Source: a virus
Virus record (IMG/VR): IMGVR_UViG_3300045988_089178
Length of the DNA: 64,000 nt
Reading direction: 5' to 3' (one strand)
The translations under genes and the position numbers were made by a program. A model generated the notes under the pieces. The model was given only the letters and a program-made list of their open reading frames with translations. It was not told where the DNA came from and searched no databases. Shown here piece by piece: positions 2,117 through 45,734 of this stretch; position 1 is the first letter of the stretch; every line of letters starts with the position of its first letter.

Positions 2117-2119
2117 TAT

Positions 2120-3865
2120 ATGGCATTAAAAGATTTATTAAACCTTTCAAATAATAATAAGAAAATTGGTCTTTCCGAAGAAAGAGTTCGTGCGATAATT
2201 CCAGCAGCAAGATAGTATATAGCTTTTTGGAGAGAATATCCAGATATGTTTATTGACTTTTTGTAGACCGGCGGAGACGAGACAAGAAAAAAAGAAATTA
2301 ATTTTTATTTTTATTAGAGAGTTTTCTTGCGGGCGGCCATGAGATATAAGTATGTATACATGGTATTTCCCCGTGCCTATTCTAAGTCATTCTTATCAGT
2401 AATGGTGCTTATGTGTAGATGTATATTATATCCTGGATGTAAGCTATTTATTACTTCTGGTGGAAAAGAACAGGCAGCAGGTATAGCAAAAGAAAAAGTC
2501 TAGGAAATTTGTAATGCGATTCCTGCACTTTAGAGAGAGATTGATTGGCGAAGAGGTAAGACTTAGGAAGGAAAAGATTATTGTAAGTATATCTTCAAAA
2601 ATGGATCTTATTTTGACAACGTTGCTGCTAGAGAATCTTCTCGTGGTAAGCGTAGACATGGAGGATTAATTGAGGAGTGCGTTGGTGTAGATGGAGATAT
2701 TTTAAATGAAGTTTTAATCCCTCTAATGAACGTTGATAGAAGATGTTTAGATGGATCTGTTCATGAAGAAGAAACACTCAATAAATCCTAGATTTATGTT
2801 ACTACTGCGGGGTGGAAAAATACATTCCCATATAATAAGTTGATTACTTTGCTAGTGCGCATGATACTAGAACCCGAAAAGAGTATTGTAATGGGCGGAA
2901 CATGGAGAATTCCTGTGCTAGTGGGATTACAATCCCGCAACTTTGTATAGGAGTTAAAACAAGATGGTACATTTAATGAAGCATCATTTGATAGAGAGTA
3001 TGAATCTAAATGGAGTGGCACCGTAGAAGATGCCTTCTTTAATGGTGATGCTTTTGATAGAAGTAGAAAATTGCTTTAGCCTGAATATGAATCTTCCGGG
3101 CGCTCTTCTGCTCAAGCATATTATGTTCTTTCTGTTGATGTAGGAAGAAAGAAATGTCAATCTGTTGTATGTGTATTTAAAGTAACCCCTCAGTCTCAAG
3201 GACCAGCGATTAAGTCTCTTGTTAATATATATACTATGGATGATGAACATTTTGAAGATTAGGCAATTAAGCTAAAAAGATTATATTATGATTATAAAGC
3301 TAAAATTATTGTTATTGACGGTAATGGACTTGGTGCTGGATTGATGGATTATATGGTTAAACCACAAATAGTGCCAGATACCAATGAAGTTTTTCCTGAT
3401 TTTGGTGTAGCTAATGATGAGGATGGAGAATACAAACGATTTAGAACAGATAATACAGAATATGATGCTATTTATGAAATTAAGGCAAATGCGCCAATTA
3501 ATACCGAAGCCCATAGCAATGTTTAGACATAGTTGCGGGCTGGAAAGTTAAGATTTTTAATCGACGAAAAAGTTGCTAGAAATAAATTACTTGGTACCAA
3601 GAAAGGTCAAGCCATGAAACCAGAAGAGCGGGCAGAATATTTAAAACCATTCACTTTAACTTCTATATTAAGAGAAGAAATGCTAAATTTGCGAGAAGAA
3701 AATGAGGGTGTAAATATTATTTTAAAACAGGCAAATAAGTCTGTGCCCAAAGATAAATTCTCTGCGCTTGAATATGGATTATATTATATTAAATAGGAAG
3801 AAGATAGTAAACGCAAGCGTAAAAGTAGAAGATTTTCAGATTTTATGTTTATGAGTGAGGTGTAA
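2120..3865 (+). CDS. terL: terminase large subunit (ATPase plus RNaseH-like nuclease), about 7 in-frame TAG
   Basis: SD AAAGGAGG plus ATG 2120. Motifs KRRHGGLIEECVGVD, VTTAGWKNTFPY, IVIDGNGLGAGLMDYM. Track ORFs 3341-3526 and 3533-3796 are same-frame fragments. Stop TAA 3863-3865. Confidence 0.75.
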
Positions 3866-3868
3866 GAT

Positions 3869-4225
3869 ATGAAGGCCAGTCGTGGAGAAATTAAAATTCA
3901 TGAGATATTAGAGCAAAATGGCATGAACTTTAAAGAAGAGTATGAGTTTCCTGGGCTGAAAGCACCAAGTGGCAGGCCACTTCGTTTTGATTTTGCTGTT
4001 TTTGATGATGATGGAAATCTTGATTTTTTAATTGAGTATCAGGGTAAATAGCATTATTAGGCTGTTAGTAAATTTGGTGGAAATAGAGGATTATACCAAT
4101 AGAAATATAATGATAATCAAAAGCGTAGATTTTGTGCATTAAAAGGTATTACCCTCATTGAAGTTCCCTATACGGAGGAAAATATCATCTCTTATGATTA
4201 TTTAATGAGTAAAGCTGGATATTAA
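3869..4225 (+). CDS. DUF559/Vsr-like PD-(D/E)xK endonuclease-like protein (possible homing endonuclease), 3 in-frame TAG
   Basis: Motif DFAVFDDDGNLDFLIEYQGK(Q)HY resembles the DUF559 xIVEVDGxQH core. Track ORF 3869-4051 continues in frame to TAA 4223-4225. Confidence 0.5.
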
Positions 4226-4242
4226 CACCTGGAGGTGATATT

Positions 4243-7142: not shown

Positions 7143-7155
7143 GGAGGATTAAAGA

Positions 7156-7845
7156 ATGGCTAAGAGTTCTAAAAGATTAGGTAATGCCACTTTTGTCCAG
7201 TATGGATATGGTCAAGTGGAGCCAAACCATCTTTCCGCTCCAAGAAATGGTCAAGTATATGCTCAGCTTCCCGCAGCTAGCACTATTGAGATTCTTGAGA
7301 ACGGTCAATTTGTAAAGTATAATTATGCAAAAGGCGTATGCGATTTTAGTACAGAAGCTACTTCTGGCGCTTGGATGATGGTGTTTAATGAAGTAAAGAT
7401 TTATAGAGATCGCGAAACTGACGCTGATTTTGCTATGATTAAGGATAATTATAATGCTCGTGTATATAGTCCAATTGGACAAACAGTTTCTACACTTGCT
7501 ACAATAAGTGATTATACCGGAGAAGCTGTACGCGAAGGTAGTGATGTAGCATATAAGAAAAATATGGAGACATTTACTTATCCTGCATTGATGCCAGAAG
7601 GAACTAAAATGGTACCTCGCGTAATTAAGATTAGTATTGGTGATATTTGGACTACTAATACCATTAAGGCTAATGCTGGAGAACTTGCAGTAGGCGATCG
7701 TCTAAAGATTGATACTGATGGATATTTAACTAAAGATACTGAAACTTCTGCTAAAGGTGGAGATTTAGATCCTATCTTTGCAGTAGTAAAAGTGTATACT
7801 ATGCCAGATCTTCAACCTGGTGTAAAAGTACAGCGTGTAGGTTAA
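7156..7845 (+). CDS. hypothetical head protein (decoration-protein position between scaffold and MCP); no TAG
   Basis: Intact 229-aa track ORF with SD AAGGAGG; gene order as in lambda C-Nu3-D-E. Confidence 0.4.
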   Translation: MAKSSKRLGNATFVQYGYGQVEPNHLSAPRNGQVYAQLPAASTIEILENGQFVKYNYAKGVCDFSTEATSGAWMMVFNEVKIYRDRETDADFAMIKDNYNARVYSPIGQTVSTLATISDYTGEAVREGSDVAYKKNMETFTYPALMPEGTKMVPRVIKISIGDIWTTNTIKANAGELAVGDRLKIDTDGYLTKDTETSAKGGDLDPIFAVVKVYTMPDLQPGVKVQRVG

Positions 7846-7864
7846 TTGGAAGGAGTGAAGAAGA

Positions 7865-8917
7865 ATGTTAGATAAAGCTAATTTACTTAGTTTAATGAAA
7901 ACTGTCGCTAATGCAAATCCTTCTGGTACCTATAGCTATCAAGGAGAGTCTTTTAGCTATGACGCTTTAAATACCACTTTGCGTAATGAGCTAAATGAAT
8001 TTGTTGGCACAGATGAACTTTATAGAGAAAATAAAAATACTCTATTCTCTTTAATTGAGCAGACTATGGATGAAGTTGTTCCTAATCGTTTACTCAATTC
8101 TTATGGCAATTTTGCTGAGATTAGAACTTTCGCACAAGGCGACAAGCCTGTATTTACTCGTAGAACTGGACTTACTCGCGCTAAGCAATTCATTACTCGT
8201 GTGGGGCTTGCTGGTGTGTATGAGACCTTTAAGCTTGGTTCTGAGAGCTTCGAAGTTGGAACAAGCGCCATTGGTGGAGCTGCTCGTATCGGATTTGAGG
8301 AGTTCCTTGATGGAAGAGTAAACTTTGCAGAACTTACTCAAATTGTAACAGAGGGTATGCAAGAGCTTATTTATAGAGAGATTGCTCAAGCTCTTATGGG
8401 TTCTATCAATCAGCTTCCCGCGGCAAACCGTTGTGCTGTTGCTGGTTTTGACGAACCAACTATGGATTATCTTGTAAATACTGCTACTGCTTATGGTCAA
8501 CCAACTATTTATTGCACTCGTGAGTTTGCAGTAAAAATGATTCCAGATAATGATGCTTGGATTTCTGACAATATGAGAGATTAGTATTGGGGAACTGGTT
8601 ATCTTGCAAATTACAAGGGAACTAGAGTGGTAATTCTACCTCAAACTCTTGAAGATGAGACTAACTCCAAAAAGATGATTGATCCAGGTTATGCTTGGAT
8701 TATTCCTGGTGGAGCTGAGAGCCGTCCTGTAAAAGTTGCTTTTGAGGGTACTACCCACGTGCGCGAACGCGATGATAATGACGACTGGTCTCGTGATATT
8801 CAGGTTTACCGTAAGGTTGGTGTCGGTGTAATGATGGCGAATAACATCTTCTCTTATGTTGATACTGAACTTCAAGGCGAGCTTGATAATACTAACCCAA
8901 ATCCAAATAATGGTTAA
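7865..8917 (+). CDS. major capsid protein (lambda gpE-like), single in-frame TAG at 8582-8584
   Basis: Track ORFs 7865-8584 and 8627-8917 share a frame and are joined by one TAG; about 350 aa; followed by a strong terminator. Confidence 0.6.
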
Positions 8918-8922
8918 TTGAC

Positions 8923-8958
8923 AGGGGATAGGGAAATATCCCTATCCCCTTTTATTTA
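8923..8958 (+). terminator. rho-independent terminator after MCP gene
   Basis: 11-bp stem AGGGGATAGGG/CCCTATCCCCT, loop AAATAT, then TTTATTTATT. Confidence 0.7.
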
Positions 8959-8981
8959 TTGAGAAAAAGGAGATAAAAATT

Positions 8982-9515
8982 ATGAAAAATAGTTGCACTG
9001 TTTATAATAAGAGCGCAGGTCGTGTTGTATATAGATTGCCTGAATTGGGCGTGCGCCGTATGTTTTACCCTGGAGAACACAAGGAACTTGAAGTATCTGA
9101 ACTAGAAAAGCTAGTACAAACGCCTGGAGGCCGCAAATTAATTTATAATTACTTACTTGTAGATGATAGAGAGATTGTTGAATATCTTATTAATGGTAGG
9201 GTTGAACCAGAGTATTGGATGAAAGAAGAAGAGATTGATTCTTGGATGAATACGTGTTCTTTAGATGAATTTAAGGATGCTCTTGATTTTGCTCCAGAAG
9301 GCACTAAAGATCTGATTAAATCCCATGCTATTTCCCTTCCTTTAAATGATATGTCTAAAAGAGATGCTTTGGAAAAACAATTAGGATTTAATGTTACTAA
9401 AGCATTAGAATTAACAGCAGATGATAAAAAGAATCCTAAGGAAGAGAAACCTGTAAGAAGAGTGTCAACTACAAGTGAGGATGCTCCAAAACGCAGAGTA
9501 GCTATTTCTGATTGA
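8982..9515 (+). CDS. hypothetical protein, no TAG
   Basis: Intact 177-aa track ORF with SD. Confidence 0.5.
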   Translation: MKNSCTVYNKSAGRVVYRLPELGVRRMFYPGEHKELEVSELEKLVQTPGGRKLIYNYLLVDDREIVEYLINGRVEPEYWMKEEEIDSWMNTCSLDEFKDALDFAPEGTKDLIKSHAISLPLNDMSKRDALEKQLGFNVTKALELTADDKKNPKEEKPVRRVSTTSEDAPKRRVAISD

Positions 9516-10378: not shown

Positions 10379-11357
10379 ATTAATGCGAAAAAGATTTGAA
10401 TGGTAGGGTGGTATTCACTAGGAAGATAGAATGATCAAAGATAAATGGAGAACTCTTTAGAAAGCATTATTATATTCTTATCAAGCCTGTACTGTTCAAT
10501 TAGTCTAGAAGTCAACCTAGGTTTTAGATGCAACGTTAGATGCTGTTGATCCAGATATGAATATTTATCCTATGTGTCGTGCGCTTATTAATCCAGATAA
10601 AGTGAAACAGGACTATGATGATAAGATAATCTCCATAGATCATATTAATCAATATGAGCCTGGAGATGTCTTTGAGTGGAAAAAAACTGGCACTCATTGG
10701 ATAATTTATCTTGAAGAAATAACTGAGGACGCTTATTTTAGAGGGGAAATAAGACGTTGTAGATATAGAATTAAGTTTAAAGATTAGGAAGGGAATTGGT
10801 GTTAGACTTGGGCTGCGATTCGAGGTCCAGTTGAAACCCAAATCGAGTCTATTTAGAAGAATCAAGAAAGATTGGATAAACCTAATCTTAGCTTAAACAT
10901 ACTTATGCCAAGAAATGAAAAAACTATTCATGCTTTTGATAGATATAGTGAATTTTTGTTCGCTGGAAGATGTTGGAAAGTTTAGGCTCCAGATGATATA
11001 AGTATGAAGAATGTAATTGAAGTGAGTGCAGAAGAAGATTATATAAATAGAGATACTGATGATATAGAAAATAGTATGAAAGATGGTTTAATATTCGAAC
11101 CAGAAGATCCTACTCCAAATAGCGGGATTATGGGAGAGACTTTTATTAAACCAATGATAGAAGAATCTTATTCTGTAGAAGAAGCTAATGGAGCTTGGTC
11201 AATATTAGAAAAGAATGTTCCTGTAACTTTATGTCCAAATGGAAATAAATCTGTTTAGTTGGTGTGGAATAAAACTACTCATGGTCAATTCACTCTAGTA
11301 TGGAAGAAGGATAATACTGTACTGGAAAAAGTTATTGTAGTAGAATCTTTATTTTAA
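10365..11357 (+). CDS. hypothetical structural protein, about 9 in-frame TAG
   Basis: Track ORFs 10557-10787 and 11004-11258 are same-frame fragments; stop TAA 11355-11357. Confidence 0.35.
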
Positions 11358-12665: not shown

Positions 12666-14057
12666 ATGCGTTTTGGTATTCGTGAGATTTGCGATGTAGT
12701 ACTTCGTGCCAAAAGCTATCAGACTTTAGGTAATCGTAAGTTCTATAAAAATGAACCAGTTTTGTACTTTGACACTTTAAGAACCTCTACTCTTGAAGGT
12801 GCTGCAACAACTGTATACGCACAGGGCGGACGTGGATATACTAGATTGATTGCTTGGGAAGGTGAGCGTACTCTAACATTTACAATGGAAGATGCTTTAC
12901 TTTCTCCAGAGAGCTTCTCTATTCTTTCTGGTGCAGGTCTGCTTGATGCAACAAAAGAAGCTCCAATTTACGTTCATCAAACTTCTCAGGTAGAAGTTGA
13001 AACAGCTAACACTATCGTGATTCCTGATAAAGCTTGCTGGAATGGATTTGCAGATCATGAAAATGAAATGTATCATCGTTCTGCTGACATTTTTGTAATG
13101 GTATTAGGAGATGATGGTCAAGTTAATGCTGAACCATGCATTCCTGTTTCTGTTTCTTATACAGAGGACGGAAAATCAACTTTAACTTGCTATTCTCATG
13201 CGGGAGTGCTCCCATCTGGTACTATCGTTTTAGTTGACTATTATGTAAAGCGCACTGGTGGCGCCCAGATGATTGAGATTACCGCTGATAAGTTTGGTGG
13301 AAATTATTATCTTGAAGCTTCTACTCTATTCCGCCGTGAGAGCGATGGCGTAGATATGCCTGCTGAATTTATTATTCCTAACTGTAAGGTTCAGAGTAAC
13401 TTCACATTCAGCATGGCTGCTAACGGTGATCCATCTACCTTTACATTCACAATGGACGCTTTCCCAGACTACACTAAGTTTGATCAAACTCATAAAGTTC
13501 TTGCCGCTATTCAGGTAATTACTGATGAAACTGGGGAAACCGAAGGATCTCGTGAGCCATGCTCTGAGAATGTTGGTACTTATGAGAGTGAAGCTGCTGA
13601 TGTAACTGTAAATTTTGTTTCTAACAGTGCCACAGAGGCGGAACTTGATGTAACTGGTACTGTAACAGGAAAGGCTTATGATACTGAGGCTTATGGAGAT
13701 ACAATTCCAGAAGCCGCACAAATTAGCCTCCAAATTCCAGTAGAGAGCGATAGTACCAAGTATACTGTAGTAACAACTAATCCAGCATATGAGAAATACT
13801 TCTCTACTGATGACCGTATTGAGGGCAATACAAAGACTCAAACCGTAGATGGCGCAGAATTGGCAGATGGCCTATTAGTAATTCTTACTAAGGAGAGTAA
13901 TACAACTCCTATTACAGCTAAGATTACTAAGATTAACGGAGACTTTGAGAAGAGTTATACTATTAATAACAAGCTCAGTTTTGCAGAAAGCACAAGCACT
14001 TATTCTGGCGCAAAAATGCGCAATAAGTTAGTCTCTGTTAGCGATGACACCATTTAA
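12666..14057 (+). CDS. major tail protein (tube or sheath-like, C-terminal Ig-like region); no TAG
   Basis: Intact 463-aa track ORF with strong SD; TAG-free inside a TAG-dense operon; followed by strong terminator; position between neck genes and tape measure. Confidence 0.5.
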   Translation: MRFGIREICDVVLRAKSYQTLGNRKFYKNEPVLYFDTLRTSTLEGAATTVYAQGGRGYTRLIAWEGERTLTFTMEDALLSPESFSILSGAGLLDATKEAPIYVHQTSQVEVETANTIVIPDKACWNGFADHENEMYHRSADIFVMVLGDDGQVNAEPCIPVSVSYTEDGKSTLTCYSHAGVLPSGTIVLVDYYVKRTGGAQMIEITADKFGGNYYLEASTLFRRESDGVDMPAEFIIPNCKVQSNFTFSMAANGDPSTFTFTMDAFPDYTKFDQTHKVLAAIQVITDETGETEGSREPCSENVGTYESEAADVTVNFVSNSATEAELDVTGTVTGKAYDTEAYGDTIPEAAQISLQIPVESDSTKYTVVTTNPAYEKYFSTDDRIEGNTKTQTVDGAELADGLLVILTKESNTTPITAKITKINGDFEKSYTINNKLSFAESTSTYSGAKMRNKLVSVSDDTI

Positions 14058-14063
14058 TTTTAA

Positions 14064-14098
14064 GGGAGGACTTAATAAAGTCCTCCCTTTTTCTTTTT
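14064..14098 (+). terminator. rho-independent terminator
   Basis: Stem GGGAGGACT/AGTCCTCCC, loop TAATAA, then TTTTTCTTTTT. Confidence 0.7.
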
Positions 14099-15563: not shown

Positions 15564-15592
15564 TTGACAATAGTTAATTTTTCTAGTATAAT
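15564..15592 (+). promoter_or_regulatory. consensus sigma70-type promoter TTGACA-17 bp-TATAAT
   Basis: TTGACA at 15564-15569, 17-nt spacer, TATAAT at 15587-15592, 32 nt upstream of ATG 15625. Confidence 0.65.
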
Positions 15593-15624: not shown

Positions 15625-16164
15625 ATGAGTGAAATTACTTTTAAAGATTTGGGTTTGGAGCCTAAAATTAAATATACAGAAGTAAAAATTGGAGAAGATA
15701 AGATTTTATCTGTGGTTAATTATCTTCCGATTGCAGATAAAACAAATCTTATTACTTTTGTCGCAGATTTAGCGATAGATGAGATGACTGGGTGTTTTAG
15801 TCCGGTAAGAGTAGAAACTTATTTTGCTATTGCTATTTGCAGATGGTATGGTGGAATTGTTTTTGAGCAAGAAGATGTGCATGAAAATATTGCCAAAACT
15901 TATGATACACTAGAGACTAATGGTGTTATTGATGCAGTTAGAAGTGCTATTCCAGTAGATGAATTGTCTTTTATTGAAGACTTAGTTAGAGATACTTTAA
16001 GCGATATAGCAAGATATAATAACTCTGCCGCAGGCATTATCCAAATGATGAATAAAAATGCTTCTGGATTAGATACATATATTACTGATATAATGGAAAA
16101 AATTAAAAATGGTGAGAATCTTGAAACTTTATCAGTAATTAAAGATGTGGTTGGAAAAGATTAA
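15625..16164 (+). CDS. hypothetical protein, TAG-free, own promoter and terminator (moron-like; occupies tail-assembly-chaperone position upstream of tape measure)
   Basis: Intact 179-aa track ORF with SD AAAGGAG; flanked by the consensus promoter and a strong terminator. Confidence 0.6.
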   Translation: MSEITFKDLGLEPKIKYTEVKIGEDKILSVVNYLPIADKTNLITFVADLAIDEMTGCFSPVRVETYFAIAICRWYGGIVFEQEDVHENIAKTYDTLETNGVIDAVRSAIPVDELSFIEDLVRDTLSDIARYNNSAAGIIQMMNKNASGLDTYITDIMEKIKNGENLETLSVIKDVVGKD

Positions 16165-16203
16165 TAAATCTAATATAATTTACAAATTAGATAGAGAATT
16201 AAA

Positions 16204-16244
16204 AGGCTCTTGAGATATAATTCTCAAGAGCCTTATTTGTTTTA
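16204..16244 (+). terminator. rho-independent terminator
   Basis: Stem GGCTCTTGAGA/TCTCAAGAGCC, loop TATAAT, then TTATTTGTTTTAT. Confidence 0.7.
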
Positions 16245-16269
16245 TGGGTGATAAAGGAGGAAAAGGATT

Positions 16270-19200
16270 GTGGCTAATAATAGAAGATTAAATTATTAGA
16301 TTGGGTTTGATGTTGATACTGCTGAACTTTACAGAGCAGTAAACGAGGCAGTTCAATCTTTAAATAAAATCAGTGCCGGTTCTAAAGTTACAGCAGAATT
16401 GCGACAAGCTTCTTAGTCTGCGCTAGAGTTATCTACTTATATGCATTAGGCATTTAATCAAGGGACTGGAAAGTTAGATTTAGTAGCTTTTGAAAATAGT
16501 TTAAAATCTAGCGGAAGAACTCTTAAAGATTATGCCAACTCGTTAATTTCGATTGGTACCGAGGGGCAAAAGGCTTTTTTAAATGTAGCAACAGCGATTC
16601 AAAAAGCGGAGCTTCCAGCATTGCGCACTGGCAAAATATTTGATTAGTTATGGATTACTATGAAAAATACTATGAGATGGCAGATTACCTCCACCGCGTT
16701 AAATAGTTTTGTGGGAACCATAGAATCAGCTTATGGGTATGCACAAGATCTAAATGAATCATTAACAAATATTCGTATAGTTACTGAAAATTCTGCGGAA
16801 GACATGGCTAAATTTGCTCAATAGGCAAATGAAGCAGCAAAAGCATTAAGTACAACTACTGTTGAATATAGTGATGCTGCTTTGATTTATTATCAATAGG
16901 GTCTTACTGAATAGGAAGTTTTAGATAGAACTGAAACTACTATTAAAATGGCTAATGCCGCAGGAATTAGTGCATAGACCGCTTCGGATCAGCTGACCGC
17001 AGTTTGGAACAACTTCTATGATGGAAGTAAGAGTCTTGAATATTATGCTGATGTAATGGTGCGTTTAGGCGCCGATACAGCGTCTAGCTCTGATGAAATT
17101 TCAGAAGGTATCCAACAATTTGCCTCTGTAGCAGATACAGTTGGATTAAGTTACGAATATGCTGCTTCTGCTCTTGCTACTGTCACTGCTACGACACGTG
17201 AGTCTGCTAATGCAGTAGGTACAGCATTTAGAACTTTATTTGCTCGTATCCAAGGCTTAAATCTTGGAGAAACTCTCGATGATGGCACTACATTAAATAA
17301 ATATTCTAAAGCTCTTGAAAAAGTGGGTATTGATATTTTTGATGTTAATGGTGAGATTAAAACTATGGATACCTTACTTGATGAAATGGGTTCAAAATGG
17401 GAGACCTTATCTAATGACTAGTAGATTGCTTTGGCTTAGACCGTAGCCGGAGTTCGCCAATATACTCGTCTTATTGCACTTATGGATAATTGGGATTTCT
17501 TTTAGGAGAATTTAGCTAGTGCTTATGGAGCAGAGGGATCTCTTTAGGAACAGGCAGATATTTATGCTGAATCTTGGGAAGCTGCTAGAGATAGAGTAAA
17601 AGCATCTGCTGAGGATATTTATGATAGTGTCATAAATCCAGATTTGTATATAAATGCAGATAATGTCTTAACTCCATTTTTATCTGGTATTGCAGACGCC
17701 ATTGATGCAATGGGAGGGTTAAATGGTATTTTAGCTAGTACCGCTTTGTTGATTAATGGGATTTATGGAAATAAGATTGCTGAATCAATGCGTTCTATGG
17801 TGGCTAATATAAAAGTTCTATCTGGATTAGAGTAGAATAGAGCGAGAAATTTGTAGGCATCAGCGGCTGAGATAGCAACTCAATTAGGCTTAACAAACTC
17901 TATGTCTTAGGCTGAAAAAAATCTTTTTAATATTATGGTTGACTAGGCTAATATATAGGGCCAAATAAATAGTAACTACGACGCGATGGATGCTAATGGT
18001 CGTAGATTAATTTAGACAGAACAGTTAAAATTAAGTATTTTGCAAGATTAGTTAAAGACATATTCTTAGTAGTAGATTTAGTCTAGGGAAAATGTATTAA
18101 ATCTTAGAGATACTATTTATTTTAATATAGGAATAAAAGATGGCTGGCAAGAAGAAGTTAAAGCAGAAATAAATAAATTTAATAGTAGAAATAAAAGTAA
18201 TCAAATTTAGTTAAATATAAGAGCTAATAGTAACCTTGATAAAATTTATAATGATGTTACTACTTAGTTAACTAGTTTAATTTAGCAATCTACAAAACTT
18301 GATACAGTGTATCAAGAATTTAAAAAACTTGAAAGCGCTGGAACTGCGACTAGAGACAGCCTTCGTAATTTATTATCTAGTGTTACGGGCAAAGAACATA
18401 ATTATGCTTAGATTGAATGGCTGACTTAGCAATTAGAGGGGTTAAAAAATTAGTCTCAAAATGCAAAATTGCAAATTCGTGAACTTGGGACTATTTTATA
18501 GACTATGGGAGCCGATCCAAGAGTAGTTACTTCTTATATTAATGAATTAACAAAATTGGAGTCTGTTACTGCAAGAACAACTGAACAAGAGGCTCGATAT
18601 TAGGAATTGTTAGCGAAGTTCCCTAGTGTAATTACAAAAGCATTAATACCAACGAGAGATTGGGCTACAATATTGGTTTAGGTTGGAAGTTCTCTTTCTA
18701 GTTTAACTATGATTATGAATGCTTTTTAGAGCATTGGAAGAATTTTTTCTGATGAAGATATGACTTCAACTGAAAGAATTGTAGCTTTGTTTACTTCTCT
18801 TGGTATGTTACTACCCTCTATTATTTCTGTTTATAAAACTTTAAATATGTTAACTACTGCTCATGCTGTTGCAGCAGCGGCGGACGCCGCGGCAACATCA
18901 GTAGAGGCTTTAGCGACAGAATAGCTTGCTATGGCGAAGCAGAAAGCCGCTATGGCTTCCGGCATCTTAACTGCTGCAATTATGGTAGCAATAATAGCGA
19001 TTACTGCAATAACAAGTGCTATAAAAGCATAGCATGAAGCAACCTTGGCTGCTGCTTAGGCCTCTATTGATGCGGCAAATGCAAAAAAAGAAGAAGCACA
19101 AGCGAATAGAGAGTTAATTCAATCTACTCAAAATGCCTTATCTACTTATCAAGAAACTGGGGATGGAAAAGAAGAGTTAGATGATTTAACTCGTTAGTTG

Positions 19201-22200
19201 GCTGAAGCGTATGATTTAGAAGGCAGTGCATTAGCTAGACTAAGTGGATAGTATGAAGATTATAATAGTGTTTTAAAAGCTGCTCAAGAAGCTCAAAGAA
19301 GAGAACTTTAGGAAACTTTGTAGTCCCAAGAAGAAGCGTTACGTGCGAATGAAACTCTCATTCTTGAAACCGCGAGAGAGGGCGTGGGCCACGTATATTT
19401 TGGTGGAAATTATGAGGGGTCTTTTACTGGTTTTAATGATTTTTGGAATGGCACCGAAGAAGATACTGCATCTAATATTCTTCTCAATAATGTGGACGCT
19501 TTATATAGTAGTTGGAATGACAATGTAATTGGCGGAAGAAGAAACTTAGCTTTTTCTATAGACCCAAATAATACAGAAGAATTAATTAATTTTTATGATC
19601 AATTAAATAATGCTATTAATTTGATGAATAATAGCATGACTGTTTCGGAAAGAGGAGCATCTGGACTTTACAATGCTGCTGTTGAGTGGCGAGATAAAAT
19701 GGAAGAGGTTGTCACTCAATATAAAGAAACTAAAGAGAGTATAAATGCTATTCGGGTATAGCTTGGAGAGTTTAATAATTAGACTATTACCGATGATCAA
19801 GTATCAAGTTTAGCGTAGTATAAAATTTGGGTTAACGAAGTTACAGAGGCGCTCACTTCTGCTGGATATGAAGGCGAAGAATTAAACGATATAATCAATG
19901 ATTTAGTATCTACTTCTCTGAATCCTGATATTAGTGGCTTTAAAGATATTTATGACGCAATTTTAGAGGTTGAAGAATTAGTCAATGATGAAGAATTAAA
20001 AAGTAATCTTGAATCTATTTTTACAGATGAAAATTATGATACTTCTGTATTAAATTTATTAAATTGGGGTGCTTTAACATAGGAGACTTTTTAGGATGCC
20101 TATGACAGTGCTAAAAAATATACTGATGCTATTTCCGAAGTTGAAAACGCAACAGAATCTTTAACTACTGCACAATCTGCCTTAGAAACTCTTGGAGATA
20201 GAGATTTAGATCGAGAAGGATTAGAATCACTTTCTAAAACTGTTGATTGGGGAAATCAAGAAAAAGGAATTATTGATTTTAATTAGTTCCTTGCTATGAC
20301 TTTAGTTGAACAATAGAGTTATTTATAGAGGATTATAAATGAGTCCTATTAGGCTGTCAATAATGGATTAATAGATTAGATTAGTGAAGCAAAAAAGAGA
20401 ATAACTGAGCAATAGGATATTTTAAATCAATATAGCGATTCTGAATTAGAACGTGCAGAAAAAGTTGTTTATGCTTGGGAACAAGTTCGAGAAGCGTATA
20501 ATGATTATCAAGGTAGCTTAAATGGCGGAGAAGAATTTAATCTTGATAATTATACGATTGATTGGGATTTGTTAGGTGAAAATTTTGATTGGGAATCTTT
20601 TAAAACCGAAACTGCGGATAACGTAGCTAGTGCATTTGAGTATGGGACAAAAGAAGCTCAAGATAAAATTGATACTGTAACTTTAGCAGAGTAGCTAATT
20701 AGTAGTTTATAGGATGATATAGATTCTAGCACAGCTTAGTTACAAATAAATGCAGAATTAAATTTTTAGAATCAATTAGATTAGATTGAAAATTCCGTTG
20801 ACGGAATTGTAAGTGTATTCGATGCTATTTCTGATGGAGTAAGCTAGACTACCAATGAAGCTGGAGAACAAGTTTGGAGTTTTAGTAGAGAAGCAGCTAA
20901 GGCTATTGAATCTATCTATCCAGGTTTTATAGCTAACGCGGAATTATTAAGGGATGGTACATTTGCTTTAACAGATGAGATGTATCAAGCATTTTATAAT
21001 AGTTCTTAGGGGCAATTAGCTGTTGATGCTGATACCAAATCTAATATGCTTCAAAATCTTATTTCTCTTTTAGAGGCTAAACGAGGAGAGGCTGAAGCTT
21101 CGCTTAAGATCGCTGATCAGCTAGCTTCTGGAGAATTAACTATAAACGAATTATCAGATGAGCAGAAGAGAACTTTATTAGCGGGATATGTAAATGCTTA
21201 GAATCTTGCTAATGGAGAAATGTTAGATGATTAGGTCAATAGTTTAACCGCACAAGATACAAATTAGTAGACTTTATGGACTAATGTTAGCGAGTATTCT
21301 GCTTAGGGCGCGCAGAACATGAGTACTAATGTATAGTTAAATACTCAAAATGTTCTTGCTAATCTTGAAAAAATTAGAGATGCGGCATATGCTACTGGAA
21401 TTCAAGTATCTCAAATAGGAACTGATAATGTTACTAAGCAAGATTTTGATACTTCTGCTGTTTCTTTTGATAGTTCGGCTGCAACAACAATAGATACGAG
21501 TAACGCTAATGATTTCTTAAATTCTTTAACTGCAAATTTAGATGTAGAACCTGTAACCGCAGACGATTTAAATATTTATGGTGATGCTAGTGAGGCACTT
21601 GAAGCTAAGCAATCTTAGGCAGTTGGAGAAGCGCTAAGGGCCATTTATTAGGGGAGTATTGATGGGTATAATGAGGCTATAGCAGCAGCAAAAATAGCCT
21701 AGAGCAAATTATTAGATTCTATTGATGGAGCTATAGAAGGGGTAAAGGGAAGTTCAAGTGGCGGAGATAATGAAGGCACTAAGTATGACGAAGAAGATGA
21801 AAAGACTCTAAAGGATATTGAAGATAGATACCATGAAATAACTCGCGAAATTGAGAATTAGAACGATTTATTAGATGATATTGGAAATAATATAGATAGA
21901 GCCTATGGCGCCAATAAACTTCAAGCATACTAGAGAGAACTTCAAGAATTAGAGAAATAGCAAGCTAATTATAACAAACTACTTAATGAAGCTGAAACTT
22001 ATCTTACAAAAGACTAGGCAGATCTTCAAGGGTTGTTTAATAATTCTCTTATTTTTGATGAAAATGGAGAAATTGAAGGTTATCAAAGTGTTCTTCAATC
22101 TATAATAGATGATTATAATAATAATTTCTTGGCAGATTATAATGCTTTTTTAGTTACCTTTAGTAATCTTACTAAAGATGAATAGGAAGCTAGATAGGCA

Positions 22201-24996
22201 GAATATGATAGTTGGCAGTTACAAAAGGAAGCTGCTGATGAATTATTCCAAGCTCGTTAGGATGCTCTCGCCCAATATGAAGAAACTCTTGACAAAATTC
22301 AAGAAGTAAAGGATGAATAGGAAGAACTAGAGAGAAGCATCGCAGACAATAGATTGAGCTAGATTGAATATAAACTTGAAGTTGTAATAGAAATAAAAGA
22401 TGCTAAAGATGCTGTTCGTGAATTAACTAAAAAGATTGCAGAATCATTTGGCGATGAATTAACTCATGGTATTGAAGTCGCTCGTATTGATGAAAATAGT
22501 GTGAACGAAAATATAAAAATAATCAAGGATTATGAAGAAACACTTAAAAGTTATCAAGAAGAATTGGCTAACGCAACGGATGCGACTGATATTGATGGAA
22601 TTATAAGTAAAATATCTGATTTATAGGGTAAAATAATTTCTACCGCAGAAGCTCTACTTGATTGGGTAGAGGGTCTTGAAGAAATGTTGCCAAATGCATT
22701 AGACGCTGCATCTGAAAGATTCGCTGAATTTACTGATCAACTTGACCATAATGAATCAGTTCTTGGACTTATAAAAGAATTGTATACACTTTAGGGGGTT
22801 ACATATAAAACCGAAGAAGGATTTGAATAGCTCCAAAAAGTAAGCGAAGAAACAATGAAAGCTCAAATAGCAAATGCGCAGTTAAATAAATAGTGGTACG
22901 ACGGTATTAAATAGGAACTTTTAGAAGCTTAGAGTGCGTTAGATGCGTTAGACGGCGATGAAACAGATCCGGCATATGATGGTTTAAAAGCTAATCGAGA
23001 TGCATTATTAGAAGAATATAATGAAGCTCAATAGGCGATGTTAAGTTCCGCGCAAGCCGCTATGGAAACTGCACAAGAGATGTATACTTAGGCTATTGAA
23101 AGAGCCGTATACGAATTTGGATAGGCGGTTTCTGGCGGAGTTGGCTTAGATTTGCTACAAGACAAGTTCGATCATTATATTGAGCAAGAAGATAGATATT
23201 TAGATAAAGTAAATGAAGCATATGAAGTATCTTCTTGGTATAATAAACTTCAATAGGATATTGATAAAGCCACTAATTCTAAAATGAAAGATTAGTTGAA
23301 ATAGTTACAAGAAGAAATTGATATTCGTAGAGAGAATAATACTTTATCTGAATATGATCTAGAAATTCTTGAAGCTAAGTATAATGTTCTTTAGGCTTAG
23401 ATGGCTCTTGAAGATGCTCAAAATGCAAAGAATCAACTTAGATTAGTAAGAGATAGTCAAGGTAATTGGAATTATCAATATACCGCAGATGCGAGTTAGA
23501 TAGCAGATGCGGAATAGAATTTACTTGATGCAGAGAATGAATGGTATAATATAGCTAAACAATAGGTTGAAGATGTTACTGGAGAAATTATTTCTACTTG
23601 GCAGGAATGTCAGGATAAAATAAAAGAGATTTATTCTGATATGACCTTGACTGATGAGGAAAGATCTGCCCGCGCGCAAGAAATCTATTCTTATTATACG
23701 CAGAAGGTTAAGGATCTAGAGAACGAAAAACAGATCGCTATTTAGGATATGACCGAAGCCGGTAATAAAGCCTTAATTGATATGGCTATTGTTGCGGGAG
23801 ACGAGGTAAGTGATCTAACTGGAATTACAAGTCAAGAAATTCAGGATATTATAGCCAACTCTGGCTCTAGTATTATTGATTTGTTATTATCCGATAATGA
23901 ATAGATTCAAGATATAGTTGGAAGTAATACAAAACTTATTGATTTATTTGATAATGTTTTTGCAAAAGATCTTGCTAATATGACTTCTAATGCTGGAAAT
24001 TTTGAAGATTTTCTATCTAAAGCCATGGACGAAGCAAGTGAAGCAATGGAAGATTATCAAACTACTGTCTCTGGAGTGGCTGATTAGACTGGAACAAGCC
24101 TTGATGATTTAGAAGGTTATCTTGATGATGTTACAACTTCTACAGAGTTATGTTCTGATGCGGGATCAGAAGCTGTCACTTAGATGTTAGAATAGATAAG
24201 CACTATTCAAGATTTAAGTCAAGAATATTTAGACATGGCTGAATCAGTTAGAGAATATATAAGGGCTCTTGAGGAGGCTGCTAGAGCAGCTGGAAATACA
24301 ATAGAAAGCGCTGGAGGAATAGATAAAGATGATTTACCTCCCGCTAATTCAGATCAATCTTCTGATAATAACTCTAGCAATAGTAATAGCGGATCTTCCA
24401 GTGGAGGGGCTGGAAGTGGCAATGGAATCCCAGAAGTAGGAGACGAAGTCATTTATACTGGTGGAACTTATTATCATGATTCTTATGGCACAGATCCAGC
24501 AGGTAGACGTGGACCCGGTAAGAAAGTTAAAATAACTAATATAGCTAAAGGCAGACCATATCCGATTCATGTATAGTCTAATAATTCTGCATATGGCTGG
24601 TTAAAAGAAAGTCAAATAAGCGGATTTGATACAGGAGGTTATACTGGAGAATTTGATAATGCTAAATTAGCTTTCTTACACGAAAAAGAGTTAGTTTTAA
24701 ATCAAGAAGATACGAAAAATATTCTCGCGGCGGTTTCTGCTATAAGAGCTTTTGAACCTAGTTTTATAGCTTCTATAGAGAAAGCGCTTGATGGAAATGC
24801 ACTATCTATTTCTAATCTTATGGCATCAAGATTAGGATCTAATACTTAGATTACTCCAGCAGATAACACAGTTGAACCGTATATAAATATTGAGCGAGTT
24901 GAGTTCCCAAATGCGACATCTTCTGATGAAATTCAAGATGCTATTCGTAGTTTAGCTGATGATGCTACTCAATGGGCAAATAGAAGAAAGGGATAA
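16270..24996 (+). CDS. tail tape measure protein, about 2908 codons, with roughly 150-250 in-frame TAG
   Basis: Track ORFs 17056-17421, 17644-17835, 19384-19761 and 24235-24576 all lie in one frame that stays open from GTG 16270 (SD AAAGGAGG) to TAA 24994-24996 when TAG is sense. Ala/Gln/Glu-rich coiled-coil composition with a hydrophobic segment near 18.8-19.0 kb; 12 TAG in a sampled 160-codon stretch. Confidence 0.65.
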
Positions 24997-25023
24997 TAGG
25001 GGAGATTTCCTCCCCTATTATCC
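24991..25023 (+). other. perfect 13-bp stem hairpin overlapping the tape-measure stop codon
   Basis: GGATAATAGGGGA-gatttcc-TCCCCTATTATCC; no downstream T-run. Confidence 0.5.
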
Positions 25024-25047
25024 CTATGAGAAAAAGGAGGATAAATA

Positions 25048-38732: not shown

Positions 38733-39372
38733 AGTTTAATTCAATAGCTTTTAATTTATCTATTGAATCAGCTTCGAATATCTAAGTTTTATATTCTTGC
38801 ATTAAATGATATTTGGGATATACCACATTTAAAATAGCTAAACTTAGAGCGGATAATTGCTCTAAACTCCATGGCACACATTCTTCGTGTCGAGCGTGCC
38901 ACTCAAGCGTAGGATTTTCTACTTCAGCCGCGAGAGCGACTTGATATTGATTGAGATTTAAGCTAATCTCAGACTGGTCCTCCTACGTAATTCCATATTC
39001 TTTTCCATCAACCCAAGTTAGTGGGTGGGTAGCAAGATACTCTGCGAATAGTTTCTTGTTTTCCTCTTGTTTGTCATACTTTGCCTAATCTAAATCAGAA
39101 GTGAATGTTCCATCTTCTTGATTATATATTGAATAATTAGGAGTAACATCTGATGGAATTGTTTCTATCTCTAATACTTTTACAGCATTAGATTGATTTA
39201 ATACATCGGCTTTAATTAGAGTATAATGTGTATCTCCATTTGAGCCGATAACCCCAGTTCCCTCTTCTTCCTCGCAGGCAACGACAATACCATTTGAGGA
39301 TTGCAGTTTAATGTAACGTGCTTCTGAAAGAATATCAACTACTACATTCTCTCTATTTAATAGAATATACAT
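38713..39372 (-). CDS. hypothetical protein, 3 in-frame TAG
   Basis: SD AAAGGAG plus ATG 39372 forming a TAATG overlap with the extended RT stop; track ORF 39085-39372 continues through TAG 39085-39087 to TAA 38713-38715. Confidence 0.4.
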
Positions 39373-40589
39373 TACTTTATTTCAACTCCTTTAAATAATG
39401 AACGAAAATAATTGTCCATATCTTGAATTATATAAAAACAAGTTCCTTTAGAAATATGTGCCCTCCAACCTTGATAGGATTTCTAAATTTCATCTGTTGA
39501 AATTTTACCCTCTAGCCATAGCGCTTGCATTTTCTTTAACTTTCTGCGCTAATGAGCCACTTTCTTTTTAAAAGGAATTTGTATTATATGATTAGTGTCT
39601 GTGAGATAAAAGTTCCACTTTAAGTATTTTAATGGAGCGTGACGTTTGCCGTCCGCGTGAATAGGAGAGATTCTAGTAATAGTAGTCTTTTTCTTATTCA
39701 TCTTTAATCCTTGCTTATTTAAGCGAACTTCTATTCTCTTTTCACATTCGGCTAAGTATTGACTGTCATTGTGGAATAAATATAAATCATCCATATAACG
39801 ACCATAATACTTAATATGTAACTCTTCTTTGATGAAGTGGTCAATTTCGTTCAATGCTAGCAATGCGAATAATTGTGATGTTTGACTTCCTAATCCAAGA
39901 CTTTTATTATCATATTCATAGTATTTGCGGCCAGGCTTGAAATTAGTGGTATTAATTCTCGTGTATTTGTGCCGTTTACTAATATAATAATCTTTCCCTG
40001 GTATGGGAGAGGAATCTTTTGTTAGCTTAAAAGAAAATGTATCTATTAAATAACAGCATAGCTGATAAATTCTTTTATCTTTTATCAAACGTTTAGCCGC
40101 TTTCTTTAAAGATTTATGGTCAATAGAATCAAAATATTTTTGAATATCAATTCTTAACCCATAAAAATCTTTTCCTAATCCATATTCTCTATGAGCTTGT
40201 TGAAGGTGTTTCTTTACTCTTTTTAAAGCAAAGTCTATTCCTTTTCCTCTTAAAGTCGCACAATTATCGTAGATAAATCTAGGAGTTAATTCTGGTAATA
40301 AAACTTGTTCACATAACGCATTTTGTACCAGTCTGTCGTTGATATGACACGCTCTTATGTCTCTTGGTTTGCCTCGTTCGATTATCGAAAAACAACTAAA
40401 CACAAGCTATTCGTATTCACACGCTCGCAGATCAGCTTCTGTTTTTAAAATTGTTTCTATCCTATTCTCTTCAAAATTAATTGTACTATCTTTCCATCGA
40501 ACGTTTCGACATACCTTATAAGACGCATCATACATAGCGTCAAAACTACAAAAACGCTCGAAAGCAGTATCTTGGTTTATTTCAGACAT
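39372..40589 (-). CDS. diversity-generating retroelement reverse transcriptase. Contains an internal TAG (40407-40409) and a TAG at 39549-39551 that, if read through, extends the protein 58 aa to TAA 39372-39374
   Basis: RT motifs: KPRDIRACHINDRLVQNAL (motif 1), FIYDNCATLRGKGIDFAL (motif 2), GSQTSQLFALLALNEIDHF (motif B), YGRYMDDLYLF (motif C, YxDD). Track ORFs 40407-40589 and 39549-40403 share a frame and are split only by TAG. SD AAGGAG before ATG 40589. Immediately downstream of the TR. Confidence 0.85.
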
Positions 40590-40895
40590 ACTTTCTCCTT
40601 ATCATGTAGCTATAGTGGTAGCTACTCGAGCTCCACGTCTACAGTCTTACTTTATCCACTTTTTCAGTGAAATGGTTAAGTTCTCCTTAGATGAAAAGGC
40701 AGATCTACCTATAGTATATTATTCGATAGTTGTAGAGCAAAGCTCTTTAACGGTCTCTCAATCTCTTCCCCACATAGTGGGTGCAATCCAGAGTAAACCT
40801 TAATTAGATGGATAATAATATACTCCGGGGTACTATTTAGGCGTTGCTCGTTTGCGCTGCTCCGCAGCTTAACTCGCAACATGATAGCTCCATCT

Positions 40896-40998: not shown

Positions 40999-41028
40999 AA
41001 AGATACAGAACTTAACCGCAGAAAAATA

Positions 41029-41523: not shown

Positions 41524-41604
41524 TTAAAATTTCCCTCACTTGAATATATAATTTTTTTATTGGACAATTTAACCTTAACTGTCCCGAATTGTTATTTTGC
41601 TGTA

Positions 41605-45026: not shown

Positions 45027-45734
<708 letters not shown>

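What the first reader, a model, noticed from the sequence alone, without database searches (positions are those of the whole stretch)
16270..24996. About 2900-codon tape measure protein in which roughly 7% of codons are TAG
A single frame stays open for 8.7 kb only if TAG is sense; a sampled 160-codon stretch has 12 in-frame TAGs. If the usual roughly 0.15 nm per residue rule holds, this implies a tail of roughly 400 nm or more. It also makes tail (and hence virion) assembly absolutely dependent on high-efficiency amber suppression, the strongest such dependence in the window. The gene ends ...GKKVKITNIAKGRPYPIHV(Q)SNNSAYGWLKES... with a possible C-terminal cell-wall-binding or peptidase-adjacent segment.
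Basis: seen in the sequence. Interest (0 to 1): 0.5.

Follow-up and report, generated by a model that had tools for sequence, protein, structure and literature searches.

The report
TAG-recoded giant phage tape measure gene
This is one real 2,908-codon tail tape measure gene of a gut phage that reads the stop codon TAG as glutamine 101 times, which is striking to look at but belongs to an already described kind of recoded, very long-tailed phage.

Summary
Window 16270-24996 (+) is one open frame of 2,908 codons. It starts at a GTG preceded by AGGAGG and ends at a TAA. It has no in-frame TGA or other TAA and 101 in-frame TAG. That is 3.5% of codons, not 7%; the densest 160-codon stretch has 14.

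It is a tape measure protein. Pfam PF10145 matches at 1.3e-29, and two roughly 2,600-residue PHROG tape-measure families match both ends collinearly.

It is one gene:
- TAG-free stretches have a median of 16 codons.
- Ribosome-site-plus-start signals after TAGs occur at background rate.
- Standard-code relatives carry uninterrupted genes of 2,620-3,124 codons.
- TAG aligns with glutamine exactly as CAA and CAG do.

Forty-four related viral contigs carry tape measures of 2,620-3,241 residues. Published phAss-1 phages have recoded ones of 3,149-3,209 residues. Cultured Lactococcus phage phiL47 has 3,275 residues and a 480 nm tail, which predicts about 425 nm here.

The C-terminus carries an SH3-like insert at a site where relatives carry cell-wall modules.

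I found no amber suppressor tRNA in the roughly 120 kb of near-identical genomes I could read.

Verdict: new member of a known kind, modest interest.

The parts
16270..24996 (+). Tape measure protein gene: GTG start, 2,908 sense codons, 101 in-frame TAG read as Gln, TAA stop at 24994-24996.
16255..16260 (+). Shine-Dalgarno AGGAGG, nine bases upstream of the GTG start.
   Evidence: Read in the sequence.
16297..16299 (+). First in-frame TAG, at codon 10. Without suppression the product is a 9-residue peptide.
16828..17451 (+). PhageMin_Tail (PF10145, TP901-family tape measure core), residues 187-394. It spans several TAG codons.
   Evidence: E = 1.3e-29, 104 bits, profile positions 1-201 of 201.
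18775..19038 (+). Two hydrophobic, transmembrane-like segments, residues 836-857 and 891-923.
   Evidence: Kyte-Doolittle scan, window 19, peaks 1.96 and 2.37.
24427..24627 (+). Variable insert folding as an SH3-like beta-barrel (residues about 2720-2786). It contains the TAG at 24574.
   Evidence: AlphaFold2 model of the 57%-identical homologue P0002 has pLDDT about 90 over this domain. Foldseek gives SH3/PsaE/Tudor folds at E 0.1-1 in PDB. In BFVD it gives a phage '43 kDa tail protein' at 1e-4 and an SH3b protein of Bacillus phage PBC2 at 5e-4. There is a weak match to the C-terminus of endolysin family phrog_20388. No Pfam match.
24628..24993 (+). Conserved C-terminal tape-measure module (TGGYTG...LHEKELVLN..DT.N.L...FP...EI), present in all 37 distinct relatives aligned.
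   Evidence: It matches the C-terminal end of phrog_4211 (positions 2507-2601 of 2625).
16203..16244 (+). Intrinsic-terminator-like hairpin (13 bp stem, 6 GC pairs) plus T-run, between the upstream ORF and the tape measure start.
   Evidence: sequence. Its function is inferred only.
15625..16164 (+). TAG-free 179-residue ORF directly upstream, a possible tail assembly chaperone. A perfect TTGACA-17-TATAAT sits at 15564-15592.
   Evidence: (phrog_30570, unknown function). No frameshift partner ORF was seen. The identity is inferred from position only.
12666..14057 (+). TAG-free 463-residue virion structural protein, the putative major tail protein, followed by a terminator at 14062-14089.
   Evidence: phrog_2729 at 1e-55. 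Homologues are very abundant and 70-100% identical. The AlphaFold2 model was poor (pLDDT 54), so the tail-tube identity is not confirmed.

Best explanation
Window 16270-24996 is a single gene for the tail length tape measure protein of a large phage, about 146 kb, probably non-contractile-tailed. It comes from the human gut and uses genetic code 15 (TAG = glutamine) for its late genes.

Shown:
- The frame is one gene.
- It has the TP901-type tape measure core, two membrane-like hydrophobic segments, and a long, proline-poor middle rich in Ala, Glu, Leu and Gln.
- It has the family's conserved C-terminal module, preceded by a swappable SH3-like insert.
- TAG stands where glutamine stands in standard-code orthologues.

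Inferred:
- A few copies of the extended protein fill the tail tube lumen. They set tail length at about 0.147-0.15 nm per residue, giving about 390-435 nm.
- At infection the protein is ejected. Its hydrophobic segments and C-terminal cell-wall-directed insert help the DNA cross a Gram-positive (Clostridia-type) envelope.
- The first TAG is codon 10 and there are 101 in all, so the full-length yield is p^101 for a per-codon read-through of p. A 10% yield needs p = 0.978 and a 50% yield needs p = 0.993.
- The protein can therefore be made only once TAG is almost completely reassigned in the infected cell. The most likely means is a glutamine-accepting tRNA with a CUA anticodon, expressed from the phage's tRNA array.
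- This makes tail assembly one of the last and most suppression-sensitive steps of the cycle.
For: Frame statistics:
- 0 TGA, 1 TAA and 101 TAG in 2,909 codons.
- A TAG-sense ORF set codes about 75 kb of the window, summed over both strands, against 29 kb under code 11.
- All 48 ORFs end in TAA (37) or TGA (11).

Tape measure identity:
- PF10145 at 1.3e-29.
- phrog_4211 and phrog_34405 (profiles of 2,625 and 2,675 positions) match the N- and C-terminal thirds collinearly.
- tblastn finds the tape measures of Lactococcus 949-group phages, Enterococcus phages of about 140 kb, SPbeta YomI and phAss-1.

Single gene:
- No start signals after TAGs beyond background.
- 44 IMG/VR loci carry a homologous gene of 2,620-3,241 codons.
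- Five of these loci have uninterrupted standard-code ORFs (L007 2,883; L042 2,620; L026 2,968; L006 and L038 about 3,122).

TAG = Gln:
- TAG lies opposite Q at 22-28 of about 90 aligned sites. The background is 6-7%, and genuine CAA/CAG glutamines give the same rate.
- TAG exchanges with CAA and CAG between relatives. In near-identical contigs 100 of the 101 TAGs are conserved and one is exchanged for CAG.

Early/late split: TAG is 2.29% of codons in plus-strand genes at 1-38 kb and 0.66% in the minus-strand replication genes.

Length calibration: phiL47 tape measure is 3,275 residues and its tail is 480 nm (PMC3888941).

Precedent: phAss-1-group tape measures of 3,149-3,209 residues are recoded TAG to Gln (PMC10607447). 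The phAss-1 ORF has 110 TAGs.

C-terminal insert.

Host hint: relatives are binned in Oscillospiraceae, Clostridia and Lachnospiraceae MAGs. An anaerobic NrdD is present.
Against: - No tRNA of any kind lies in the window.
- I could read about 120 kb of near-identical contigs. There the tRNA array (26 tRNAs called by ARAGORN in one contig, plus a tmRNA) holds tRNA-Gln(UUG) and tRNA-Gln(CUG). It holds no CUA anticodon. About 24 kb of the genome was not seen, so the decoding agent is unidentified.
- Siphovirus morphology is inferred from relatives and gene length. I found no sheath gene, but the putative tail tube protein could not be confirmed structurally.
- No programmed-frameshift chaperone pair was seen upstream.
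- The SH3-like fold was modelled on a 57%-identical homologue, not on the window protein. It has no Pfam match.
- Tail length and translation were not observed.
Confidence: 0.88

Rival explanations
1. The region is a string of shorter genes, or a decayed pseudogene, separated by genuine TAG stops under the standard code.
For: Public gene callers do split it. All 71 database homologues of the C-terminal 192 residues are fragments of 105-336 residues. The phAss-1 GenBank record annotates its orthologue as many small hypothetical ORFs.
Against: - The median TAG-free stretch is 16 codons and the longest is 148.
- Shine-Dalgarno-plus-start signals after TAGs occur at the random rate.
- There is not one TAA or TGA in 2,908 codons.
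- The Pfam domain and the PHROG matches run across TAGs.
- Standard-code orthologues are intact and of the same length.
- 100 of 101 TAGs are conserved in near-identical contigs.
Confidence: 0.01
2. TAG is read as an amino acid other than glutamine, or ambiguously as several.
For: No tRNA(CUA) was found, so its identity elements cannot be checked. Lys and Glu are the next most frequent residues opposite TAG.
Against: - Gln is the commonest partner of TAG in all five standard-code orthologues, at 4-5 times background.
- The whole substitution spectrum (Q, then K, E, S) is the same as for CAA/CAG glutamines.
- TAG exchanges mostly with CAA and CAG between relatives.
- Code 15 has been verified by metaproteomics in other gut phages (PMC9523058).
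- tRNA analysis inferred the same code in phAss-1 (PMC10607447).
Confidence: 0.04
3. It is the tape measure of a contractile-tailed (myovirus-like) phage, or its length does not translate into a tail of about 430 nm. The second case would arise if large parts are globular or are cleaved off.
For: - The major tail protein could not be confirmed by structure, and most tail-module neighbours have no annotated function.
- About 190 C-terminal residues are globular modules, preceded by a Gly/Ser-rich linker.
Against: - No sheath or baseplate-wedge family was matched among the 18 neighbouring proteins scanned.
- The nearest cultured relatives by tape measure core are all long non-contractile-tailed phages: the Lactococcus 949 group, SPbeta and the Enterococcus 140 kb phages.
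- In phiL47 length and tail agree at 0.147 nm per residue (PMC3888941).
Confidence: 0.07

Closest known systems
Tape measure proteins of phAss-1 and its two relatives (proposed genus Phassvirus, 'Caudoviricetes code 15 clade'; Babkin et al. 2023, PMC10607447)
   Same: - Human-gut phages of 133-138 kb.
- Tape measures of 3,149-3,209 residues interrupted by TAG read as Gln.
- The phAss-1 ORF has 3,155 codons with 110 TAG, or 3.5%, the same density as here.
- Both have a large tRNA array and replication genes poor in TAG.
   Different: - Only 38% identity over the tape measure core.
- No nucleotide-level match.
- The gene order around the tape measure differs.
- phAss-1 carries three tRNA-Sup(CTA). 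None was found in the parts of this phage's genome I could read.
Tape measure protein of Lactococcus phages phiL47 and 949 (Audreyjarvisvirus)
   Same: - TP901-type core, found by tblastn.
- Length of 3,275 residues.
- Genome of about 128 kb with low GC (32.5%).
- Measured non-contractile tails of 480-500 nm (PMC3888941).
- This is the best available calibration for the predicted tail.
   Different: - Standard genetic code.
- About 24% identity over the core.
- Different host group.
Bacillus phage SPbeta YomI, and mycobacteriophage TM4 tape measure (tape measures carrying cell-wall-active modules; PMC1796659)
   Same: They are long tape measures with an embedded domain directed at peptidoglycan. 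The insert site before the conserved C-terminal module works the same way in this family. Relatives carry NlpC/P60, PG_binding_1 or LysM there.
   Different: The insert here is an SH3-like barrel, so at most a binding module, with no recognisable catalytic domain. YomI carries a lytic transglycosylase and TM4 carries peptidoglycan hydrolase motifs.
TAG-recoded gut phage clades of Borges et al. (bioRxiv 10.1101/2021.08.26.457843)
   Same: Recoding is concentrated in structural and late genes. Standard-code relatives sit within the same lineage. Predicted hosts use the standard code and are Firmicutes. Suppressor tRNAs are not always detectable.
   Different: I did not place this phage in any of their named clades. 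Their paper mentions a tape measure only as a label in a prophage figure.

Membership tests
Phage tail tape measure protein (TP901-1-type core, Pfam PF10145 PhageMin_Tail) | PF10145 domain above Pfam's gathering score | tested here: met
   104 bits against a cut-off of 33.2, E = 1.3e-29, residues 187-394, full profile 1-201.
Phage tail tape measure protein (TP901-1-type core, Pfam PF10145 PhageMin_Tail) | End-to-end collinearity with known long tape measure families | tested here: met
   - phrog_4211: N-terminal third matches profile positions 500-946 and C-terminal third matches 2507-2601 of 2625.
- phrog_34405: matches at 113-519 and 1996-2394 of 2675.
- The middle third has no match.
Phage tail tape measure protein (TP901-1-type core, Pfam PF10145 PhageMin_Tail) | Position in the tail module, after the major tail and chaperone genes and before the distal tail or fibre genes | tested here: inconclusive
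   - The order fits: portal (phrog_2739), then a TAG-free virion protein, then a 179-residue ORF, then this gene, then a 1,304-residue protein and others.
- One downstream protein matches tail family phrog_1887.
- The neighbours lack firm functional annotation, and no frameshifted chaperone pair was seen.
Phage tail tape measure protein (TP901-1-type core, Pfam PF10145 PhageMin_Tail) | Extended, helix-prone, proline-poor sequence with hydrophobic membrane-like segments | tested here: met
   - Pro is 0.8% and Cys 0.1%.
- Ala, Glu, Leu, Lys and Gln together are 36-51% per 200 residues up to residue 2600.
- Two hydrophobic segments lie at 836-857 and 891-923.
- This rests on composition only. No secondary-structure prediction was run on the whole protein.
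Phage tail tape measure protein (TP901-1-type core, Pfam PF10145 PhageMin_Tail) | Gene length determines tail length | not testable with these tools
   This needs electron microscopy or deletion mutants. The prediction is about 426 nm by the phiL47 ratio.
Genetic code 15 phages (TAG reassigned to Gln) | In-frame TAG in essential genes, with termination only at TAA or TGA | tested here: met
   281 TAGs lie in the 24 plus-strand late ORFs. All 48 ORFs end in TAA (37) or TGA (11).
Genetic code 15 phages (TAG reassigned to Gln) | TAG occupies glutamine positions of standard-code homologues | tested here: met
   22-28 of about 90 aligned TAG sites are Q in five standard-code orthologues. The background is 6-7%, and CAA/CAG give the same rate. 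TAG also exchanges with CAA and CAG between relatives.
Genetic code 15 phages (TAG reassigned to Gln) | Phage-encoded suppressor tRNA with a CUA anticodon | tested here: inconclusive
   - None in the window.
- None within the flanks or in the tRNA array of near-identical contigs.
- About 24 kb of the genome was unseen.
- tRNA arrays fetched through homologues of the array's GIY-YIG gene, from related or similar phages, do carry tRNA(CTA) in 14 of 79 loci.
Proposed genus Phassvirus (phAss-1 group) | Nucleotide similarity and shared synteny with phAss-1 (80-86% nucleotide identity among its members, PMC10607447) | tested here: not met
   Megablast of the gene and of 24 kb of the window against 50,697 phage records, including phAss-1, found nothing. 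The tape measure core is 38% identical at protein level.
Bacterial SH3 (SH3b) cell-wall-binding domains | SH3-like beta-barrel fold | tested here: met
   This was tested on a proxy. The model of P0002 (57% identical) has pLDDT about 90 with six strands. Top PDB folds are PsaE, SH3 and Tudor at TM about 0.65. The BFVD hit to the SH3b protein of Bacillus phage PBC2 has E = 5e-4.
Bacterial SH3 (SH3b) cell-wall-binding domains | Match to a curated SH3b sequence family | tested here: not met
   No Pfam family at E up to 1. There is only a weak match (2.6e-4) to the C-terminal end of an endolysin PHROG.
Bacterial SH3 (SH3b) cell-wall-binding domains | Binds peptidoglycan or a cell-wall polymer | not testable with these tools
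   This needs a binding assay.

The most novel reading that the evidence does not exclude
In this phage family TAG may not be a neutral synonym of CAA and CAG. It may act as a throttle that sets timing and copy number.

- TAG is almost excluded from a fixed set of four to five structural genes: the putative major capsid, its two neighbouring genes, the major tail and the chaperone. There the TAG share of Gln codons is 0.01-0.03 (0.16 for the chaperone) across about 30 recoded relatives.
- TAG supplies 37-64% of Gln codons in the neighbouring, presumably low-copy virion genes and about half in the tape measure.
- With 101 TAGs, the tape measure would then be the rate-limiting, last-made virion part.
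- The decoding agent may be non-canonical, because no tRNA(CUA) was found in about 120 kb of near-identical genome. That genome does carry a tmRNA and an oddly interrupted tRNA.
Probability: 0.15. Interest if true: 0.6.

Novelty: new member of a known kind. Interest (0 to 1): 0.3.

Why it matters
- It is a clean worked example of how far stop-codon reassignment can go in one essential gene. There are 101 sense TAGs, so read-through must exceed about 98% per codon for even a tenth of ribosomes to finish.
- It shows that standard annotation destroys such genes. Public protein databases hold only fragments of this family. Two 'unknown function' PHROG families appear to be the N- and C-terminal halves of a TAG-split, terminase-like gene.
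- Within one family, relatives range from 0 to 116 TAGs in the same gene. That makes a natural series for studying how a stop codon is captured.
- None of this changes current understanding. Recoded tape measures of this size and tails of this predicted length are already on record.

Tried and rejected
- Suppressor tRNA hunt. I walked out from both window ends with all 8 viral-contig scans and the one metagenome scan.
  - There are no tRNAs within about 20 kb on either side.
  - A tRNA array starts in contig IMGVR_UViG_3300045988_080502 (L214) and continues in ENA contig OGPH01001010.1 (L217). It has no CUA anticodon.
  - A further walk through an AAA ATPase reached only a 3.9 kb contig.
- Close relatives in the curated phage collection. 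Megablast found none.
- Context effect on termination. The base after TAG has the same distribution as after all codons (p = 0.73).
- Programmed frameshift in a chaperone gene upstream. No partner ORF was found.
- Tandem repeats as the source of the length. None of note.
- Pfam and PDB sequence searches of the C-terminal 239 residues, the putative major tail protein and the putative capsid protein gave nothing.
- Structure of the putative major tail protein. The model was too poor to search with (pLDDT 54).
- I considered a crAss-like giant virion RNA polymerase as the identity of the long ORF at the outset. The tape-measure family matches ruled it out.

Full report
**What is in the sequence**

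The window is AT-rich (33% GC). It makes sense as coding sequence only if TAG is a sense codon. ORFs of at least 100 codons sum to about 75 kb over both strands with TAG as sense, against 29 kb under the standard code.

In the finding's coordinates, frame 1 has 0 TGA, a single TAA (the terminal stop) and 101 TAG in 2,909 codons. Every other frame has 85-150 TAA and 14-198 TGA. At off-frame stop rates the chance of such a frame is 1e-62 or less.

The stop-free frame opens at 16255. The only credible start is GTG 16270, nine bases after AGGAGG at 16255-16260. The gene therefore has 2,908 sense codons and ends at TAA 24994-24996.

TAG is 3.5% of codons. 7.1% is the sum of TAG, CAA and CAG.

**One gene or many**

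- TAG-free stretches have a median of 16 codons and a maximum of 148.
- An in-frame start with a Shine-Dalgarno motif lies near 6 of 101 TAGs. The same is true for 6 of 90 CAA codons and for 5.5 +/- 2.3 of random codon sets.
- Codon-position composition is uniform along the whole gene.

Relatives give the strongest evidence. Forty-four IMG/VR loci carry a homologous gene of 2,620-3,241 codons when TAG is read through. In five of them the gene is intact under the standard code: L007 has 2,883 codons and no TAG, L042 has 2,620, L026 has 2,968, and L006 and L038 have about 3,122.

**What TAG means**

I aligned the window protein with the five standard-code orthologues.
- The 101 TAG positions face Gln at 22-28 of about 90 aligned sites.
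- The background Gln frequency is 6-7%.
- The gene's own CAA and CAG codons face Gln at the same rate and share the same runner-up residues (K, E, S).

Between recoded relatives TAG exchanges mainly with CAA and CAG. Two contigs with 99.5-99.7% identical tape measures keep 100 of the 101 TAGs and have CAG at the other. TAG is therefore glutamine, that is, code 15. This has been shown by metaproteomics for other gut phages (PMC9523058) and inferred for phAss-1 (PMC10607447).

**What the protein is**

- Residues 187-394 match Pfam PhageMin_Tail, PF10145, at 104 bits against a cut-off of 33.2.
- Two PHROG tape measure families of about 2,650 positions match the N-terminal and C-terminal thirds in collinear positions.
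- tblastn against 50,697 phage records finds the tape measures of the Lactococcus 949 group, Enterococcus phages of about 140 kb, SPbeta YomI and phAss-1.
- The sequence is proline-poor (0.8%) and rich in Ala, Glu, Leu and Gln.
- It has two hydrophobic segments at residues 836-857 and 891-923. After residue 2,600 a Gly/Ser-rich linker leads to globular modules.
- There are no tandem repeats.

The gene sits downstream of a portal gene, a TAG-free virion protein and a 179-residue TAG-free ORF. Large proteins follow it, one with a tail-family match. I found no sheath gene. I could not confirm the tail tube protein by structure, because the model had pLDDT 54.

**The C-terminus**

The last 120 residues or so (TGGYTG...LHEKELVLN...FP...EI) are conserved in all 37 distinct relatives aligned.

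Immediately before them lies a variable insert.
- A model of a 57%-identical homologue folds it as a confident six-stranded barrel.
- Its best PDB matches are SH3, PsaE and Tudor folds at weak E-values.
- Its best viral matches are a phage tail protein and an SH3b protein of Bacillus phage PBC2, at E 1e-4 to 5e-4.
- At the same site other relatives carry an NlpC/P60-like sequence (L046), PG_binding_1 (P0043) or LysM (P0068).

No Pfam family matches.

**Tail length**

phiL47 has a 3,275-residue tape measure and a 480 nm non-contractile tail (PMC3888941), or 0.147 nm per residue. That gives about 426 nm for 2,908 residues, and perhaps 390 nm if the C-terminal modules do not count.

Most siphovirus tails are 50-200 nm, and the record holder, P74-26, is close to 1 micron (PMC10034513). 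The predicted tail is therefore long but has precedent.

**Dependence on suppression**

The first TAG is codon 10, so nothing useful is made without read-through. Full-length yield is p^101:

| Per-codon read-through p | Full-length yield |
|---|---|
| 0.99 | 36% |
| 0.978 | 10% |
| 0.95 | 0.6% |

By count this is by far the most demanding gene in the window; the next has 28 TAGs. By density it is not. Its TAG share of Gln codons (0.49) equals that of the other late genes. The high count comes from length and from 7.1% glutamine.

TAG is 2.29% of codons in the plus-strand late block. It is 0.66% in the minus-strand replication genes: Pol III alpha, NrdD, a helicase and primase. This fits the published early/late model (bioRxiv 10.1101/2021.08.26.457843).

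**The decoding agent was not found**

- The window has no tRNA.
- Walking along near-identical contigs, I found none within about 20 kb of either end.
- I then found a tRNA array that begins about 17 kb beyond the window start. It has 26 tRNAs called by ARAGORN plus a tmRNA.
- The array includes tRNA-Gln(UUG) and tRNA-Gln(CUG) but no CUA anticodon.
- tRNA arrays fetched through homologues of the array's GIY-YIG gene, from related or similar phages, carry tRNA(CTA) in 14 of 79 loci. phAss-1 has three (PMC10607447).
- About 24 kb of the roughly 146 kb genome stayed out of reach.

The suppressor step is therefore an inference.

**Comparison and verdict**

- The closest described case is the phAss-1 group. 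These are recoded tape measures of 3,149-3,209 residues, and the phAss-1 ORF has 110 TAGs.
- This phage is not a member of that genus. The core is 38% identical and there is no nucleotide match.
- It belongs to a large, mostly unannotated family of gut and rumen phages of 100-200 kb. Their contigs are often binned with Oscillospiraceae, Clostridia or Lachnospiraceae MAGs.

It is a new member of a known kind.

Noticed in passing
window 7153-7845, 7859-8917, 8922-9515, 12666-14057, 15625-16164: Five late genes almost avoid TAG, with 1 TAG among 38 Gln codons. Other late genes use TAG for about half of their Gln codons (Fisher p = 1e-10). The same genes avoid TAG in about 30 recoded relatives: the TAG share is 0.01-0.03 (0.16 for the chaperone-like ORF) against 0.37-0.64 for neighbours. 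These are probably the highest-copy virion proteins.
   Followed up: partly
window 39372-43455 (- strand): RT 39372-40598, TR 40896-40998, VR 41619-41721: A diversity-generating retroelement.
- A reverse transcriptase (PF00078, 1.4e-16) lies next to a 103-base template repeat.
- Its 87%-identical copy lies at the 3' end of a 542-residue Ig-like/DUF6273 protein gene.
- By eye, the differences between the two copies lie at adenines of the template copy.
   Followed up: yes
L217 (ENA OGPH01001010.1) 7933-8247, 10622-10738, 4180-4237; L214 17081-19480: The tRNA array of near-identical genomes holds several odd elements:
- a tmRNA (88 bits);
- a tRNA whose anticodon region is replaced by a 55-base segment (49.8 bits, missed by ARAGORN);
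- a twister-P1-like match (51.7 bits, below the gathering score of 67.2) just 5' of tRNA-Ser;
- a GIY-YIG endonuclease gene inside the array.
   Followed up: partly
window 15564-15592, 14062-14089, 16203-16234, 24989-25025: A perfect TTGACA-17-TATAAT lies upstream of the TAG-free ORF before the tape measure gene. Strong terminator-like hairpins lie after the putative major tail gene and just before the tape measure start. A 17 bp hairpin overlaps the tape measure stop codon.
   Followed up: no
window 2117-3865: The terminase-like ORF (13 TAGs) matches two different 'unknown function' PHROG families: phrog_15503 over its N-terminal 227 residues and phrog_24618 over its C-terminal 226. These families were apparently built from TAG-split fragments. 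Likewise, all 71 database homologues of the tape measure C-terminus are fragments of 336 residues or fewer.
   Followed up: partly
L003-L046 (IMG/VR relatives): The same tape measure gene carries 0, 24, 36, 54-66, 77-84 or 92-116 TAGs in different relatives. This is a graded series from the standard code to heavy recoding within one family.
   Followed up: partly
L049 6874-7386 (- strand), about 3 kb upstream of the window start in contig IMGVR_UViG_3300045988_080502: An ORF resembles peptidyl-tRNA hydrolase of the PTH2 type, judging by its sequence motif only. It lies among auxiliary genes next to the structural module.
   Followed up: no
window 51452-53758 (-), 45027-45734 (+): An anaerobic ribonucleotide reductase NrdD (2e-144) points to a strictly anaerobic host. 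A serine resolvase domain gene lies in the 43-47 kb block.
   Followed up: no
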